From the human T2T-CHM13v2.0 reference genome, Homo sapiens: 64,000 bases of DNA. Within the stretch, counting starts at the first letter, position 1; each line of letters begins with the position of its first letter. Below are positions 57,886 through 64,000 of the stretch, piece by piece. A program made the position numbers and the translations under genes. Where the stretch lies: assembly GCF_009914755.1 (NCBI RefSeq), contig NC_060938.1; one strand, given 5' to 3'. Under the pieces are notes generated by a model. The model had not been told where the DNA came from. It did no database searches and saw only the letters and a program-made list of their open reading frames with translations.

Positions 57886-59796
57886 TTGAGAACCCAGATA
57901 AAAATAGCTAACTTTCTTCTCCAAAAGAAAAAAGAATGACAGTGAGTAGAGGTCTGCTTCTATTGGCTATCAGATAATCTTATAACCCTGCAGTACTGTG
58001 GTGGTACGAAGCACATCCACAGCAGTAGTGTGACCGTCAGGTATCAAATAGACAAGAACTTCAGAGAAGACAAATGTAACATTTGAAATCAGTAGAAAGA
58101 AGTATTACTTTGAGAAAGTTGGTTATTATTTGGAATTTGAAGAAATAAACAATAAATTTCAAATAACTTAAAGAATGAAATAAAAAATAAAATTAATACT
58201 ACAAGGAAGTTTTTAAAATATTCATGCCTTTTCCTCATGACATGAAATATAAATATCATGAAGTAAAAGACAGACAAATTTTACTAACTAAACAAACTCA
58301 TTTTTAGCAAACACTTGATAAATACCATTGAGACAAATAAATTAGAAGAAAATATTTACATGGTATATATAACAAAAAAATGGATATTCAGAATGTATAG
58401 AGATTATCAAATAATAAAGAACTTGCAAATCCCAGTGGGAAAATGAGCAAAGAATATAAAGAGGAATTACACAGAAGAAAACGTATGCTATGTATTAACA
58501 AATGAAAAGTTGCTTCATCTGTGTAATGGCCAAAATGTATGTTAAAATATAAGACAGCATTTCTCCCATCTCATTGGTAAAATAAAAAATACATATGCAC
58601 TTCATAAATTCATATGTCACTTCAGCATTTTTACAGTTAATATCACTTTTGTTATTCTTAAAAAGTTGAAAAATTAAATGAGTTAAAAGCAGTATGAGAG
58701 AAATTATTGCAAATATGTGTATAATATTGTTAGGAGAAACCCAAGTAAGACCCCAGAGGTGTAAGTTTAAATTGAAGACTAATCAGTTTATATATATAAT
58801 AATTTAAAAATATTCTGTGCATTATAAAACTCACAAAAGAATTAAAAGGCAAAAAAATCAAGAAAAAATAATTTCAAAATAAATGCCACAACACAGCTTC
58901 CTGTGGTCAAGATTTCTCTCCATTCTACTTTGACGTCTAAATAGATCTTTGGGCATCTAGACTAATATTGGGTTTGTATACTCCCAGAAAATTCAAGACT
59001 ACTAAACGCACCCAACCTTACAACCCCGAAGCATATTATCACATAGGGGTCTTGTGTAGTTTGCTAAAATGTAATGTACTACCTGTCACAGAATGAGCAC
59101 TTAACTGATGTTGGGTGTGATGTAGCATAGTAGCAAAAAACTTTAGAATTAGGCCACAATGTTTTTAAGGGCTTTGCACGACCCATTATTTTTTGGCACT
59201 TAATTTTAAAAAATCTGCATGCTTATTTTAATTTTGTCATTACTTGCCATTGTATCCATCTCAGCACACTGATCAAATAATCACAAAAATCACAGAGATG
59301 ATACTCTGCTAATTAAGAAAGTTTTCTTTTTTTCTTTGTGAAACCATTCTTCATTTTTTTTTTTTTTGGTATTTAGAAATAATTTCTAGTGCTAATTTAT
59401 TTTTAGTGACATTTTGCACAGACTCTCCAAATAAAAAACCAAGAACGACCAATTTTATTGGGAAAATACTAAATGTAACAAACTTTATTTTTTGATGAGT
59501 GAAGACTATTTTTCTAATTTTGCTTAAAAATTTTAGGTTTAGCCTTAGGTAATAAAGTTAATAGAGAGAATGTTTACTACCATGCATAAATTCAAAAGAC
59601 TTGTTAGTTTAGATTGTCAATTTAATGTTGAACAAAGTTGCTTGAAATTTTCAGATGAAATAACTTTAGGTAAGCTTAAGAAAAGTTTGATTGCATTTTG
59701 TTTATAATCTTGTACTTCTATTTTCATTCTGATTTAGTAGGCTGCACACTTTTTAAAAAAAAAAATTCAGGTGGATTGTGGCCATTCCTTTTCCTC

Positions 59797-62700
59797 TTAA
59801 GTCTTATTTGATTGTTCTTCCAGAACAAATATTAACATTTGCAGTCCTGCATCTGGATCAAGCAGTTTGGTTAGAGAAATTTAAACCTTTAAATCACAAA
59901 ACAGCTTATTTTCAATTGTCATAGCTGACACTGAATCTATGCCTAATGGTGTAAGCAATGTGGATATTGGAATGTCTCTGAGTTTTTATATTAATAAATT
60001 TACTAGCTAAATAAGTGATGTAATCATCTGTTGATGTCTGAGATGAAGAGTGAGTAAAAACCACATAAAAGTCTTCCATAAAACTAAACTTATCTTGGAA
60101 TTCTTTGTAAAAATAATTTCTGTGAGATGGAACTTTGGAAAGTTTTCCTGTAATTTCTTGAAATCAAATTTAACAGTGCATGGTAGTCTGACCATTCTGC
60201 ATTCTCCTTTCTGTATAAAAAACATCACTATTTCAAGGCCAGAGAGCCCCCTTTACATGGCTTGTTAAGAATTCTTCAAAATCCAGCATGATTCAAGATA
60301 CTGATGGATTTTGGGTATTTCAAGAGAATTCCTCTGGTGGCTAAAATGCTTTGAAGATCATTTGTGCAGCAGTCACTCAAGATGAAAGACTCCCTAGTTA
60401 ATTGTCCAGTGAGATTACAGTTCCTGTGACAGTGGCAGAAGAAGTCCAGCAAGGAGTTAGCAGCAGCCTAGTTGGCTTTTGTTGCATTCTCAATGAAAGC
60501 AGAAACTAATGAATAGCACTCAAAGTAATCAAGTTCCTGCTTTCTTGTCAAAAATTGAAGATGTACTGCTCCAGCTACTTTGGGGCTTAACACTTTCTCC
60601 AATTAAGAAGAGATGTTGAGAGCTTCTAGGAACCCATCATCCAAGACTGCGGCACTAAAAAAACACACCTGAGATTTTGCTCTACGAAGTTATTTTCTAT
60701 TAAATTCACTGCCTTTTTCACATCAGAGTGAATAATGACAAAACATTGTAGCTTGGTCGTTTTGCACTCTTCATTCTGATTTTGCAGCAACTTGCATTCC
60801 TTTCAACTGCTCATAAGTTAAATTTCTCAATGAAGTAATCACAACAGAACTATCTCCTTGGACAGTTTGGAGTTTCCTGAAAAAAAACAGATATACTACC
60901 ATATGATCCAAAAATCCCACTGCTTGGTATATACCCAAAAGAAAGGAAATGAGTATATCAAAGAGATTTCTGCACTCCTAGGTTTGCTGCAGCACTGTTT
61001 ACAATTACTAATATTTGAAAGCAACCTAAGTGTCCATCAACAGATGAATGAAGAAAATGTGGTACATATACACAGTGGAGTACTATTCAGCCATAAAAAT
61101 GAAAGCCTGTCATTTGCAACAACATGGATGGAACTGAAGATGATTATGTCAAGAAAAATAAGCCAGGCACAGAAATACAAACATCATGTGTTCTCGCTTA
61201 TTTCCGGGATCTAAAAATAAAAACAATTAAACTCATGGACGTAGAGAGTAGAAGGATGATTACCAGAGCTTGGGAAGGGTAGTGAGAGAGTGAGGGGGAG
61301 GCAGGAATTGTTAATGGATACAAAAAACAAAAAAGAAATAATATATAATAAAAACCTACTATTTGATAGCAAACCCAGGTGACTATAGTCAATAGTAACT
61401 TAATCATATATTTGAAAATAACATAAAGAGTGTAATTGGAATATTTGTAACTCAAAGAATCACTGAGGGGATACCCCATTCTCTAGGATGTGCTTTTTTT
61501 CACATTGAATGCCCGTGTCAAAACATCTCATGTACTCCATAAATACTATGTACCCACAAACATTAAAAATAAAATACAAAAAAGAACCATCTTCTCTCTG
61601 TGTAACAAATACTATGGTTTCAAATCCAAGGCTAGAGAGCTGCCCTGAAATAATATACACTCTTTTGACTTGAAGAGTTTTCTCTTTGCTCTATACATAG
61701 GTATTTGTAGAAGTTAACATTCTGGAACACTGACTTCCAACACAGCAAGAGGGACAGCCACACATGTAAAATACAATGACAGAGCAGGACTCACAAGTGC
61801 ATTCTGCTGAAAAGGTGAGCAAGCCAAATTCAAATTATTTTTCAAACTCATTGATTTTAGCTACCGAAAGGTCTATAGGACATTATCAGACAGAGTTTTT
61901 GTAGAACCTAAGATTTAGAAAGTGAACTTGAATGTGACTGTGATCATTATGCAACAACTGCTGTAAAAACTCAGGTTGGTGTTGGCCACAAAGGACTACA
62001 ACACTCTTGTGTTGCCTTGACAAGCTCCTCTAAACGTGGCAGTAAACTTAGTGCCTTTCAGTATTCTCCTTTTTCCCATAGACTCACAGACAGCGAGAGA
62101 CACCTGGCTCCCCCACATCACTTCCTTAGCAGCCAAGAACAGCATGTCACCCAGAATGAATTCTGGCTGTGGCAGAAAATGGCCCACATAGAGAGATGTC
62201 TGGCATTTGGTAGTACCTGGGTGAGAGCTTTCCAAGCTCTTAGGAAGTATACAATGCATAAGGTCCATTTCTAAATACTAGAAACATCTTGCTGTGAAAG
62301 CACATAAAGTCCATAGTTAAGATGATGATGCCATGCAGAAAAACACGTGGCAATGTAACCACCAGTCTTTACTTTTTCAATGGCCTTGCACATGGCTGTT
62401 ACTGTACTGCTGAAGTCCAGCGTCAGCAGTTTATGTTTCCCCATTGTGTCATCAGCCCAATGCAAAGTACCATCAAAATAACACCTGGAGGTGCTAACAG
62501 GAAAATAATCTGAGTAAATCCACATTTGCTGTCTCAACTTCCAAAGACTGGTCATCAAACAGTGTGTTTCTGTCTTTCTATCTTGGCTGCCACCTTTACT
62601 ACACTGTAGGGGTCTGAGGTTTGTAGAGTGGATATCGCAGAGTTCTGGTTGTCCTTGTGAGGTTTGATATGATAAACTTTTTAAAAGAAAGTAGGCCTGA

Positions 62701-62808
62701 TTACAGAAATGAGTATTGTCCCGACAATCCACATAGAATTCTGGGGCATTCTTCTCTTTACATTCAATAATAGCTTCCGCTAAACTTGTAATATTCTGTG
62801 GGAATGTA
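59797..62808 (-). pseudogene. Fossil animal type I polyketide synthase (vertebrate pks1/MuPKS-like), C-terminal part: ER-like, KR, ACP; split by L1
   Basis: Colinear minus-strand motifs across several frames: ER-like DYFPVS...KHKLLTLDFSSTVTA..KVKTG (~62360-62513); KR VYIISGQLSSLGFET (61615-61660); AVLDDG (LDD at 60636-60644); LEKVLSPKVAGA; ELDYFECYS; AN*AAANSLLDFFC; IN*G; ACP LTPLGIDSVSAMTIEN...LLDPD (LGIDS at 59932-59946), then stop. Many stops and frameshifts. Confidence 0.88.
60858..61582 (+). mobile_element. L1MA1-3-type 3' fragment inserted into the PKS KR domain
   Basis: L1 ORF2 end and 3'UTR ending TACTATGTACCCACAAA plus A-rich tail; TSD AGAAC(T/C)ATCT at 60846-60855 and 61583-61592. 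Confidence 0.87.
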
Positions 62809-62819
62809 TCACTTCTTCA

Positions 62820-64000
62820 CCTTCTTGCTCACTTCCCACCTTCTTGCTCAGAGCTCCAATGGGCTCAGAGCAATGTTTGGAGTGCCAATCACCCTGAGCT
62901 CAACCTTGCTCTGAGCATCATCTTCTCTGAGCTCCATCTTACACTGAGAAGCACCTGCTGCAAGCTCCATCTTGCTTGGAGCTCCTTCTTGCTCCAAGCT
63001 CTATCTACTCCAAGCTCCATCTTGCTCAGAGCTCCATCTGCTCCAAGCTCCATCTTGCTCGAAGTGCCAATCGCTCCAAGCACTATCTTGCTGTGAGCAA
63101 CATCTGCATAGACATTCATCTTACTCAGAGCTCCATCTAGTCAGAGATCCATCCACTTTGAGCTCCATCTTGCTAGGAGTTCCAATCACTCCAAGCCCCA
63201 TCTTGCTGGGAGCTCCAATCACTTCTAGCTCCATTTTGCTCTGAGCACCATGTGGACAGAGCTCATCTTACTCTGAGCTACATGTGCTCTGAGCTCTACC
63301 TTGCTTGGAGCTGTAATCACTGTGGGCTCCGTTTTGTTCTGAGCTCCAACTAAAACCAAGCAACGTCTCCTCCAAACTCCATCTTGCTTAGAGCTCCTTT
63401 TTTGCTCAGAGCTCTGTCTGCTCTGAGCTGCATCTTGCTCAGAGCTCCAATTGCTCAGAGCAATGTTCAGAGTGCCAATCATTCTGAGCTCCCTCTTGCT
63501 CTGAGTACCATCTGCTCTGAGCTCCATCTTACACCAGCAACATCTGCTCCAAGTTCCATTTTGTTTGGAGCTCCTTCTTGCTCAGAGGTCTATCTGATCT
63601 GAGCTCCATCTGGTTCGGAGATCCAATCACTCCAAGCTCCATCTTGCTCTGAGCACCATCTTCTTGAAGCTCCATCTACTCCCAGCTCCATCTTGCTTTA
63701 GAGCTTCCATCACTCTGAGCTCCACTTTGCTCAGAGCTCCATTTACTCAGAGCTCCACTTGCTCCAAGCTCCATCTTTCTCAGAGCTCCAATCCCTCCAA
63801 ACTCCATCTTGCTCTGAGTACCCTCTGCTCAGAGCTCCATATTCTCGGAGCTGCATCTTCTAGCTCCATCTTGCTGATATCTCCAATCACTTCCAGCTCC
63901 ATTTTGTTCTGAGCATCATGTGCTCGAAGCTCCATCTTACTGTAAGCAGCATGTTCTCTGAGCTCCATCTTGCTCTGAGCACCATCTGTTCTGAACTCCA
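62820..64000. repeat. Degenerate ~16-17-bp tandem array (GAGCTCCATCTTGCTC[A/T]-like), continues past window end
   Basis: Dozens of variants of gagctccatcttgctc/ccaagctccatc/gagctccaatcact. Confidence 0.9.

What the first reader, a model, noticed from the sequence alone, without database searches (positions are those of the whole stretch)
59797..62808. Fossil vertebrate-type polyketide synthase (ER-like/KR/ACP, no TE) hidden in a primate segmental duplication
Seen: the minus strand, read across frameshifts, gives in correct type I PKS order TLQTSDPY, DYFPVS...LTLDFSSTVTA..KVKTG, YFTCVAVPLAVL...KLFKSKRVYIISGQLSSLGFET, SAAVLDDGFLEALN..LEKVLSPKVAGAVHL..TRKQELDYFECYSLVSAFIENATKAN*AAANSLLDFFC..RNC.LTGQ/IN*G, and DDYITYL...LTPLGIDSVSAMTIENKLF...KLLDPD...LEEQS*. 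Established: these are the KR Rossmann, LDD, catalytic Lys and YAAAN, and INWG motifs plus the ACP phosphopantetheine Ser motif. Termination after ACP without a thioesterase is the architecture of animal PKSs (fish otolith pks1, budgerigar MuPKS), a family reported as largely lost in placental mammals. Inference: this is a unitary-type PKS pseudogene, part of a giant terminal exon since no introns are seen over ~2.3 kb, multiplied with the duplication. The ORF track shows only scraps of it.
Basis: partly seen in the sequence, partly recalled or inferred. Interest (0 to 1): 0.95.

Follow-up and report, generated by a model that had tools for sequence, protein, structure and literature searches.

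The report
Dead polyketide synthase gene fragment, duplicated
This stretch of human chromosome 14 is a decayed, copied fragment of a polyketide synthase gene that marsupials, birds, reptiles and fish still have, so it is a physical trace of a gene that the papers I read report as missing from placental mammals.

Summary
The minus strand 59797-62818 is colinear with the last ~745 residues (ER-like region, KR, ACP, stop) of vertebrate type I polyketide synthases. By frameshift-aware alignment it is 44.5% identical to opossum PKS (score 1077; controls 42-58). It carries 6-7 stops, about 16-18 frameshifts and an antisense L1 3' end (60861-61597). The catalytic Tyr codon of the KR is TAG.

In trees the human copies form one clade, sister to marsupial PKSs. 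The relic is not FASN-derived (33 bits against 112).

The window copy is not the ancestral locus. It is a 5'-truncated piece of a giant terminal exon. Near-identical copies lie on chr14 and chr22 (99.7-99.8%), an older one on chr2 (96.7%), and much older ones on chr16 (about 85%) and chr13 (about 78%). The chr16 lineage shares at least 8 lesions and the L1 with it.

The chr16 and chr13 copies each lie about 32-33 kb downstream of an ANKRD26-like exon. Five KS exons of the same family, named LINC00614 by database records, lie downstream of ANKRD26 on chr10. That is probably the parent locus.

My searches found no paper describing these relics. It is a pseudogene of a known family: moderate interest.

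The parts
59797..59799 (-). TAA stop that ends the relic reading frame. It follows the codon aligned to opossum residue 2082 of 2083.
59800..60030 (-). ACP (carrier domain) relic. GIDS motif with the Ser codon at 59932-59934, one TAA at 59881-59883, and one frameshift near 59977.
   Evidence: Own ACP profile E 4e-9 and 2e-5. tblastn E about 1e-9. Pfam PP-binding only 14.2 bits, E 0.055.
60031..60330 (-). Decayed KR-ACP linker with an 81-nt insertion (60175-60255), a TAA near 60267 and frameshifts.
   Evidence: no hit with the linker profile
60331..60860 (-). KR relic, C-terminal two thirds. Contains SAAVLDDG, the Lys in SPKVAG, an in-frame TAA at 60603-60605, TAG in place of the catalytic Tyr of YAAAN at 60468-60470, and IN*G in a shifted frame.
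   Evidence: Pfam KR E 3.5e-15
60861..61597 (+). 5'-truncated L1 3' end, antisense to the PKS, A-rich tail at its high-coordinate end. It splits the KR after the Rossmann strand and is shared with the chr2 and chr16 copies.
   Evidence: The plus-strand ORF matches LINE-1 ORF2p residues 1236-1273, E 1.1e-5. Insertion seen.
61598..61690 (-). KR relic, N-terminal Rossmann part. VYIISGQLSSLGFET (61616-61660) against turtle VYIVAGGLTGLGFET.
   Evidence: own KR profile E 1e-6
61691..62818 (-). ER-like (degenerate MDR/enoyl-reductase type) region with its flanking linkers, corresponding to opossum residues 1339 to about 1720. It carries 3 stops and about 12 frameshifts.
   Evidence: Own ER-like profile, 4 ORFs, best E 1.7e-22. 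Family profile against CurF ER, E 5.8e-6..
62809..64000 (.). 5' breakpoint of the relic at about 62818, followed by a tandem-repeat array of 16/33-bp units that replaces the upstream PKS sequence. The chr2, chr22 and second chr14 copies share this junction.

Best explanation
The stretch is a non-functional, 5'-truncated duplicate of the giant terminal exon of the mammalian ortholog of the vertebrate iterative type I polyketide synthase (KS-AT-DH-[ER-like]-KR-ACP, no thioesterase). It encodes nothing. The frame is broken about 25 times, the KR is split by an L1, the KR catalytic Tyr codon is a stop, and KS, AT and DH are absent.

Shown:
- homology, domain order, and the end after ACP;
- placement as sister to marsupial PKSs;
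- the set of human copies and their divergences;
- lesions shared with the chr16 and chr2 copies.

Inferred history:
1. The PKS gene lay downstream of ANKRD26. Its five KS exons remain there on chr10 and are named LINC00614 by database records.
2. Its terminal exon was carried with ANKRD26-like sequence into pericentromeric duplications (chr13 and chr16 lineages; K2P 0.24-0.27).
3. One dead copy picked up the L1 and at least 8 lesions.
4. A piece cut at opossum residue 1339 then spread to chr2 (K2P 0.034) and lately to chr14 (two copies) and chr22 (K2P 0.002-0.003).

In the window the relic lies inside an intron of the DUXAP10 and LINC01297 read-through lncRNAs, on the same strand.
For: - Colinear tblastn to reptile and bird PKSs: P0004 residues 1025-1769 map to 62795-59803.
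- Frameshift-aware alignment: 722 codons, 321 identical to opossum (44.5%), 6 stops, 16 frameshifts, inserts of 737 and 81 nt. Against turtle: 724 codons, 298 identical, 18 frameshifts. Controls 42-58 against 1077.
- Trees: human relics are one clade (SH-aLRT 98 and 99), sister to 8 marsupial PKSs (100 and 100). This holds with an opossum-guided and with a turtle-guided reading. Without any guide, the top 4 of 47 references by summed tblastn bits are marsupials.
- Copies and identity.
- Lesions shared with the chr16 copy: frameshifts at opossum residues 1363, 1522, 1578, about 1777, about 1823 and about 1972; a TGA at 1589; a TAA codon insert at 1840; an insert at 1959; and the L1 at 1755.
- The junction at about 62818 is shared with the chr2 copy, while chr16 reads on into DH.
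- ANKRD26-like CCDC144C exons lie 32-33 kb upstream, on the same strand, of the chr16 and chr13 relics. ANKRD26 itself lies 59 kb upstream of the chr10 KS exons.
Against: - Pfam PP-binding on the ACP piece is below its cut-off (14.2 against 20.8 bits).
- 12 of 13 single fragments gave no PKS-domain Pfam hit, and the 181-aa ORF gave no PDB hit.
- Frameshift counts come from my own aligner and are approximate in poorly conserved linkers.
- No DNA homology links chr10 to the duplicated copies. The intron upstream of the chr13 exon matches only the two chr13 loci apart from Alu copies, and the chr10 sequence downstream of exon 5 gave only dispersed repeat hits. No terminal-exon copy is on chr10.
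- The ANKRD26 link is therefore positional only. For the chr14, chr22 and chr2 copies it is not shown: POTEG lies 73 kb upstream in the annotation table supplied with the finding, and I recall rather than tested that POTE genes descend from ANKRD26.
- No genome of another placental mammal could be searched, so the timing rests on K2P and assumed rates.
Confidence: 0.86

Rival explanations
1. The window copy is the unitary pseudogene decaying in place at the ancestral PKS locus.
For: No intact PKS gene was found in the genome. The relic is colinear and has no introns.
Against: It is cut at about 62818 against a tandem repeat, and the chr2 copy shares that junction. The chr16 and chr13 copies reach further upstream. 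The window copy shares the L1 and at least 8 lesions with chr16. It is 99.7-99.8% identical to two other loci. The KS exons lie on chr10.
Confidence: 0.05
2. It is a processed (retrocopied) pseudogene made from a PKS mRNA.
For: No introns over 2.2 kb here, and none over about 4.3 kb in the fullest copies.
Against: The chr13 copies begin at a splice acceptor, and homologous intron sequence continues upstream of it. Medaka pks has only six exons for a 6.1-kb transcript (Hojo 2015, passage read), so a giant exon is native to the gene. No poly(A) run follows the stop.
Confidence: 0.03
3. It is a pseudogene of human FASN or of another fatty-acid synthase.
For: FASN KR domains do appear among the PDB hits (E 5.7e-7, 33 bits).
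Against: Turtle PKS scores 112 bits on the same query. Bacterial PKS KRs score as well as FASN does. The relic ends after ACP without a thioesterase. The trees nest it in vertebrate PKSs, though FASN itself was not a row in those trees.
Confidence: 0.01
4. It is foreign DNA (bacterial or fungal PKS) from horizontal transfer or assembly contamination.
For: Database names of the relatives borrow bacterial and fungal labels such as 'mycocerosic acid synthase-like' and 'PKS6-like'.
Against: The gene tree follows the vertebrate species tree, with the relic beside marsupials. The relic holds an L1 and lies in seven human loci with graded divergence.
Confidence: 0.01
5. The relic has been taken over for a new role, as a lncRNA exon, a regulatory element or a short peptide.
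For: It lies inside the span of the DUXAP10 and LINC01297 read-through transcripts, on the same strand (annotation table supplied with the finding).
Against: No listed exon overlaps it. The longest open stretch is 181 codons without a PKS start. Its paralogs diverge at rates typical of neutral DNA. Expression was not testable here.
Confidence: 0.04

Closest known systems
Marsupial PKS (for example opossum 'mycocerosic acid synthase-like', P0107, 2083 aa). Hojo 2015 Table 2 lists the opossum and Tasmanian devil genes as KS-AT-DH-KR-ACP.
   Same: Sister group in both trees. Colinear from residue 1339 to 2082 with the same C-terminal end. 44.5% identity despite decay.
   Different: The relic lacks residues 1-1338 and has about 25 disabling lesions plus an L1. 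No product is possible.
Sauropsid and fish PKSs of the same family. The budgerigar MuPKS and the medaka and zebrafish otolith pks are the characterised members; those two names come from the papers and from recall, not from my alignments.
   Same: Same family and same architecture. Reptile and bird PKSs were the first database hits. There is no thioesterase.
   Different: Orthology to MuPKS or to fish pks1 specifically was not tested. The product of the lost mammalian enzyme is unknown.
LINC00614 locus, chr10:26994413-27006140 (minus strand), next to ANKRD26.
   Same: Same PKS family. Five KS exons equal to turtle residues 1-260 at 65-81% identity. The shrew model is closest to marsupial PKS N-termini, at 74%. 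It is probably the 5' end of the same ancestral gene.
   Different: It has canonical splice sites, no stops and a single frameshift, so it is far less decayed than the window relic. No DNA overlap with the window, so the link is inferred.
Human FASN
   Same: Same megasynthase superfamily, with a recognisably related KR (33 bits).
   Different: FASN is intact, has many exons and carries a thioesterase (recalled). The relic is not derived from it.

Membership tests
Vertebrate (animal) iterative type I PKS | KR domain of the PKS type | tested here: met
   Pfam KR E 3.5e-15, 56.8 bits against a cut-off of 22.6, on the read-through with X at stops. E 3.2e-7 on a single fragment.
Vertebrate (animal) iterative type I PKS | Carrier (ACP) domain with a phosphopantetheine Ser, downstream of KR | tested here: inconclusive
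   Pfam PP-binding gives 14.2 bits, E 0.055, below the 20.8 cut-off. The family-specific profile gives E 4e-9 and 2e-5. The GIDS motif is present with its Ser codon at 59932-59934.
Vertebrate (animal) iterative type I PKS | Ends shortly after ACP, with no thioesterase | tested here: met
   The alignment ends at opossum residue 2082 of 2083 and TAA follows. No thioesterase Pfam hit in P0003, P0004, P0005, P0007 or P0107.
Vertebrate (animal) iterative type I PKS | Falls inside the vertebrate PKS clade in a tree | tested here: met
   Sister to 8 marsupial PKSs, SH-aLRT 100 in both trees. These were quick searches, and FASN was not included as a row.
Vertebrate (animal) iterative type I PKS | KS, AT and DH domains present | tested here: not met
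   None in the window: 0 of 238 HSPs lie outside 59700-62900, and none map upstream of opossum residue 1339. The copy is truncated, so it is a fragment of a member and not a whole member.
Vertebrate (animal) iterative type I PKS | Open reading frame and catalytic residues intact | tested here: not met
   6-7 stops and 16-18 frameshifts. The KR Tyr codon is TAG at 60468-60470.
Enoyl reductase (MDR) domain of PKS/FAS | Sequence homology to ER/MDR domains, including the NADPH-binding lobe | tested here: inconclusive
   A profile of 8 vertebrate PKS ER-like regions hits the CurF ER at E 5.8e-6 over the N-terminal lobe only. Going by their names, 41 of the 42 listed hits are MDR enzymes. Pfam ADH_N is below threshold in 5 intact relatives. 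No nucleotide-binding lobe was detected. A fold test was not possible.
Segmental duplication | Other loci in the same genome with high identity over more than 1 kb | tested here: met
   Second chr14 locus 99.83%, chr22 99.70%, chr2 96.7% over 2-3 kb of aligned sites. 5 kb at 99.7%.

The most novel reading that the evidence does not exclude
The PKS may not have died at the marsupial-placental split. The parent gene next to ANKRD26 may still have been intact when its terminal exon was first copied into pericentromeric duplications. If so, the chr13 and chr16/chr14 lineages were dead-on-arrival copies of a live gene.

Support: the chr13 and chr16/chr14 lineages share no lesion in the ACP region when viewed at DNA level, and at most one candidate elsewhere. 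The chr16 and chr14 lineages share at least 8.

The five KS exons then stayed under constraint far longer. The shrew model has an intact 266-aa ORF, and human has a single frameshift. That would mean either a surviving KS-only protein in some placentals or a late, lineage-by-lineage loss.

The relic family would then be a dated record of how the ANKRD26-linked duplications spread, and its window copy preserves the uninterrupted site where the chr16 copy is cut by satellite.
Probability: 0.3. Interest if true: 0.65.

Novelty: new member of a known kind. Interest (0 to 1): 0.42.

Why it matters
The two papers I read state that placental mammals lack a type I PKS. Hojo 2015 says the gene was lost in mammals and asks for a more intense search. 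Lin 2024 saw none in any placental. This relic and its paralogs are the physical remains, and they allow three things:
- They show that the human lineage inherited the gene vertically (sister to marsupial PKSs).
- They allow a rough dating of its decay.
- They give a test of where the gene sat (next to ANKRD26).

They are also useful markers for the history of pericentromeric duplications. None of this changes what is known about PKS chemistry, and a gene loss that leaves a pseudogene is expected. The interest is evolutionary and moderate.

Tried and rejected
- Pfam on 13 single ORF fragments: only one KR hit, plus a chance DUF6434 at E 0.041.
- PDB search with the 181-aa ORF: nothing.
- Pfam on the L1 ORF: nothing. 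The PDB search then identified it as LINE-1 ORF2p.
- hhalign of the PKS alignment against P0010: it covered only KR-ACP, so it says nothing about the ER-like region.
- DNA search with the intron upstream of the chr13 terminal exon: only the two chr13 loci plus Alu copies.
- DNA search with the chr10 sequence downstream of KS exon 5: only dispersed repeat hits, which I take to be Alu.
- blastn of 60 kb of chr10 against the relic loci: only repeat hits shared with many unrelated loci.
- ESM Atlas with the shrew KS protein: generic KS clusters, nothing on mammals.
- Repeat finder for a target-site duplication around the L1: none reported. By eye, CAGAGAGAAGATGGTTC and CAAGGAGATAGTTC flank the insert and may be a decayed one.
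- Candidate lesions shared by chr13 and the other lineages near opossum residues 2025 and 2036-2037 turned out, at DNA level, to be independent events.
- The apparent acceptor 'cccacag' at 62797-62803 is coding sequence in the chr16 copy, not a splice site.
- Literature: 9 searches. None of the listed titles or abstracts, nor the passages read in three papers, mentions a PKS pseudogene in placentals, nor LINC00614.
- Supplements were not opened. Those of Lin 2024 list its vertebrate KS sequences and might include the LINC00614-type fragments.
Full report
WHAT IS THERE

The window is chr14:13578001-13642000 of T2T-CHM13 (annotation table supplied with the finding).

tblastn with reptile and bird PKSs gives a colinear series. 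Chrysemys P0004 residues 1025-1234, 1349-1443, 1459-1618 and 1712-1769 map to 62795-62175, 61860-61586, 60802-60327 and 59976-59803.

I wrote a frameshift-tolerant protein-to-DNA aligner to read the relic through.
- Against turtle P0004 it aligns 724 codons, 298 identical (41%). It finds 6 stops plus a TAA inside a 3-nt insert, 18 frameshifts, a 737-nt insert (60861-61597) and an 81-nt insert (60175-60255).
- Against opossum P0107 it aligns 722 codons to residues 1339-2082 of 2083, 321 identical (44.5%), with 6 stops and 16 frameshifts.
- The score is 1077. Controls give 50 for the reversed protein, 42-44 for three shuffles and 58 for the wrong strand.

HMM tests:
- Pfam KR is met: E 3.5e-15 on the read-through with X at stops, and E 3.2e-7 on one 44-aa fragment.
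- Pfam PP-binding is below its cut-off: 14.2 against 20.8 bits. The ACP of this family fits that model poorly even when intact (opossum 22.3 bits).
- Profiles built from 47 vertebrate PKSs and run over all 2749 six-frame ORFs of the window hit only eleven minus-strand ORFs in 59800-62816, in the order ER-like, KR, ACP.
- All 238 of 238 tblastn HSPs of the 47 references lie in 59700-62900.

STATE OF THE MOTIFS (read from the alignments; the motif names are recalled)

| Motif | Turtle | Human relic |
|---|---|---|
| KR Rossmann | VYIVAGGLTGLGFET | VYIISGQLSSLGFET |
| Following motif | HSAVVLHDGRLEA | SAAVLDDGFLEA |
| Lys of SPKVAG | kept | kept |
| Catalytic Tyr, QANYAAAN | Y | TAG at 60468-60470 |
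| LNWG | LNWG | IN*G, in a shifted frame |
| ACP | LGMDS | LGIDS (Ser codon 59932-59934) |

The frame ends at TAA 59797-59799, one residue short of the opossum C-terminus. Five intact relatives show no thioesterase domain. Hojo 2015 (Table 2, read) gives KS-AT-DH-KR-ACP for opossum and Tasmanian devil.

THE INSERT

The plus-strand ORF 60837-61214 matches residues 1236-1273 of human LINE-1 ORF2p (E 1.1e-5). An A-rich run lies at the high-coordinate end. The insert is therefore a 5'-truncated L1 3' end, antisense to the PKS.

THE ER-LIKE REGION

- Pfam gives only sub-threshold ADH_N hits, at the same place in five intact relatives.
- A profile of that region from eight vertebrate PKSs hits the CurF enoyl reductase (5dp2) at E 5.8e-6, over the N-terminal lobe.
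- Going by their names, 41 of the 42 listed hits are MDR enzymes.
- No nucleotide-binding lobe is detected.

'ER-like' is therefore right, and the domain is probably degenerate in the living enzymes too. A fold test was not possible.

WHAT FAMILY

- With the 137-residue KR read-through as query, 8 of 9 database hits are turtle, lizard or bird PKSs (E 7e-27 to 1e-19, 51-62% identity).
- Against PDB, the same query scores 34.9 bits on PksJ and 33 bits on human FASN. The relic is not a FASN copy.
- A search with turtle residues 1021-1783 found 926 proteins at E <= 1e-10. Of the best 120 listed, 8 rows are marsupial and none of the named rows is placental (5 rows carry no name).

TREES

The first tree has 51 rows and 744 columns (IQ-TREE quick search with a mixture model).
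- It follows the species tree: ray-finned fish, lungfish, amphibians, then amniotes.
- The four human relic rows form one clade (SH-aLRT 98).
- That clade is sister to the 8 marsupial PKSs (100), and mammals are sister to sauropsids (99).

The relic peptides in that tree were read with opossum as guide, so I repeated the reading with a turtle guide. The result is the same (99 and 100; LG+G4). Without any guide, the four references with the highest summed tblastn bits are marsupials.

FASN was not a row in these trees. The relic peptides carry X at every stop and frameshift.

THE OTHER HUMAN COPIES

Searches of the whole genome and fetched loci give seven loci.

| Locus (strand) | Opossum residues | Identity to window at aligned sites | K2P |
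|---|---|---|---|
| chr14:13.64 Mb (minus; the window) | 1339-2082 | - | - |
| chr14:13.385 Mb (plus) | as window | 99.83% | 0.0017 |
| chr22:16.37 Mb (plus) | as window | 99.70% | 0.0030 |
| chr2:132.13 Mb (plus; extra inserts) | as window | 96.7% | 0.034 |
| chr16, two pieces (minus) | 1017-2082 | 84-85% | 0.165-0.181 |
| chr13:18.45 Mb (minus) | 660-1312 and 1882-2082 | 77.5% | 0.27 |
| chr13:20.48 Mb (plus) | 660-979 | no overlap with the window | - |

The two chr13 copies differ from each other by K2P 0.066.

SHARED LESIONS

The chr16 copy shares these with the window copy:
- the L1;
- frameshifts at opossum residues 1363, 1522, 1578, about 1777, about 1823 and about 1972;
- a TGA at 1589;
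- a TAA codon insert at 1840;
- an insert at 1959.

Their common ancestor was therefore already dead.

The chr13 lineage shares none in the ACP region once viewed at DNA level, and at most one candidate elsewhere, a +1 shift at 1186-1187 in a poorly conserved linker.

With assumed neutral rates of 1.0-2.2e-9 per site per year (recalled), the splits fall roughly at:
- 1 million years (chr14/chr22);
- 8-17 million years (chr2);
- 40-90 million years (chr16);
- 55-135 million years (chr13).

This is inference with wide error.

EDGES

The window copy loses homology to the chr16 copy at about 62818. Upstream, chr16 reads on into DH, while the window and the chr2 copy both run into a 16/33-bp tandem repeat (62894-64000, continuing beyond the window). 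The 'cccacag' there is coding sequence, not a splice acceptor.

Both chr13 copies start at opossum residue 660 (mid-AT), directly behind a pyrimidine tract and AG. Their homology continues about 430 bp into the intron. Hojo 2015 reports six exons for the 6153-nt medaka transcript (passage read). The native gene therefore has a terminal exon of about 4.3 kb, and the window holds its last 2.2 kb (not counting the 737-nt L1).

WHERE THE GENE PROBABLY SAT

- A Pfam KS search of the genome finds OXSM, FASN, and three open exons on chr10.
- tblastn and inspection show five exons at chr10:26994413-27006140 (minus strand). They have an ATG start and canonical GT/AG sites, match turtle residues 1-260 at 65-81% identity, and carry no stop and one frameshift, in exon 4.
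- Database records call this 'putative uncharacterized protein encoded by LINC00614' in gibbon and orangutan. A shrew model of 266 aa, named 'putative inactive ... polyketide synthase', is intact and is closest to marsupial PKS N-termini (74%).
- No KS C-terminal half and no AT N-terminal half was found anywhere in the genome.
- The large CCDC144C-type exon of ANKRD26 lies 59 kb upstream of KS exon 1 on the same strand. ANKRD26-like copies of that exon lie 32 kb upstream of the chr16 relic and 33 kb upstream of the chr13:18.45 relic, again on the same strand.
- I infer that the PKS lay downstream of ANKRD26 and that its terminal exon travelled with ANKRD26-like sequence into pericentromeric duplications.
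- This link is positional only. No DNA homology joins chr10 to the copies.

MECHANISM

The stretch does nothing as a gene. What it once encoded is the reductive and carrier end of an iterative PKS: the KR reduces the beta-keto group, and the ACP carries the chain. That description is established knowledge of the family, not something tested here. According to the annotation table supplied with the finding, the relic lies in an intron of the DUXAP10 and LINC01297 read-through transcripts and overlaps no listed exon.

NOVELTY

- Hojo 2015 lists no type I PKS for human, cattle, dog, dolphin or mouse, and says further search is needed (Table 2 and Discussion passages).
- Lin 2024 states that no PKS was seen in any placental mammal (section 7 passage).
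- Nine literature searches listed no paper whose title or abstract describes a placental PKS pseudogene, and no paper mentions LINC00614.
- The library holds open-access papers only. I did not open supplements and could not see GENCODE pseudogene tracks.
- The RefSeq table supplied with the finding has no row for the relic.

It is an undescribed member of a known kind: a duplicated pseudogene fragment of a known family. Interest is moderate.

Noticed in passing
G000:C16:39163651-39166261 (L029) and G000:C16:52263428-52264878 (L028): The chr16 copy of the relic is cut in two. Opossum residues 1017-1510 lie at 52.26 Mb and residues 1516-2082 at 39.17 Mb. Both pieces are on the same strand and in colinear order, 13.10 Mb apart. 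Both break edges abut CATTC-rich satellite in the same orientation; the name HSat2 is my recall. The window copy (62302-62359) keeps the uninterrupted site. The large 16q satellite block therefore seems to sit inside this pseudogene copy.
   Followed up: partly
G000:C10:26994413-27006140 (L056, L057): Five KS exons of the same PKS family (LINC00614 by database names), 59 kb downstream of the ANKRD26 coiled-coil exon. They have an ATG start, canonical splice sites, no stops and one frameshift in exon 4, which the orangutan model also shows. A shrew model keeps an intact 266-aa ORF. They are far less decayed than the window relic (1 lesion in 260 codons against about 25 in 745).
   Followed up: partly
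whole genome (G000): No relic of the KS C-terminal half or of the AT N-terminal half (opossum residues about 260-660) was found anywhere. Pfam PF02801 and PF00698 hit only OXSM, FASN, MCAT and the two chr13 relics, and the chr13 hits start at mid-AT.
   Followed up: yes
G000:C13:20479676-20480480 (L031): A short relic (opossum residues 660-979) on the plus strand at 20.48 Mb. It shares two stops and a frameshift with the chr13:18.45 Mb copy (K2P 0.066). No ANKRD26-like exon was listed nearby.
   Followed up: partly
G000:C23:4858951-4859115: A weak Pfam ketoacyl-synt hit on chrX (31 bits, E 2.9e-4, open frame). tblastn with PKS proteins gave no support, so it is probably chance.
   Followed up: partly
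window 62809-64000 and L027 1-1160: A tandem-repeat array with 16/33-bp units (about 64-69% matches between units) directly upstream of the relic breakpoint. It is shared with the chr2, chr22 and second chr14 copies. Its origin is unknown.
   Followed up: no
Hojo 2015, Table 2 (PMC4604110): The platypus PKS-like locus LOC100091954 is listed there as a pseudogene, so PKS decay in mammals may not be limited to placentals.
   Followed up: no
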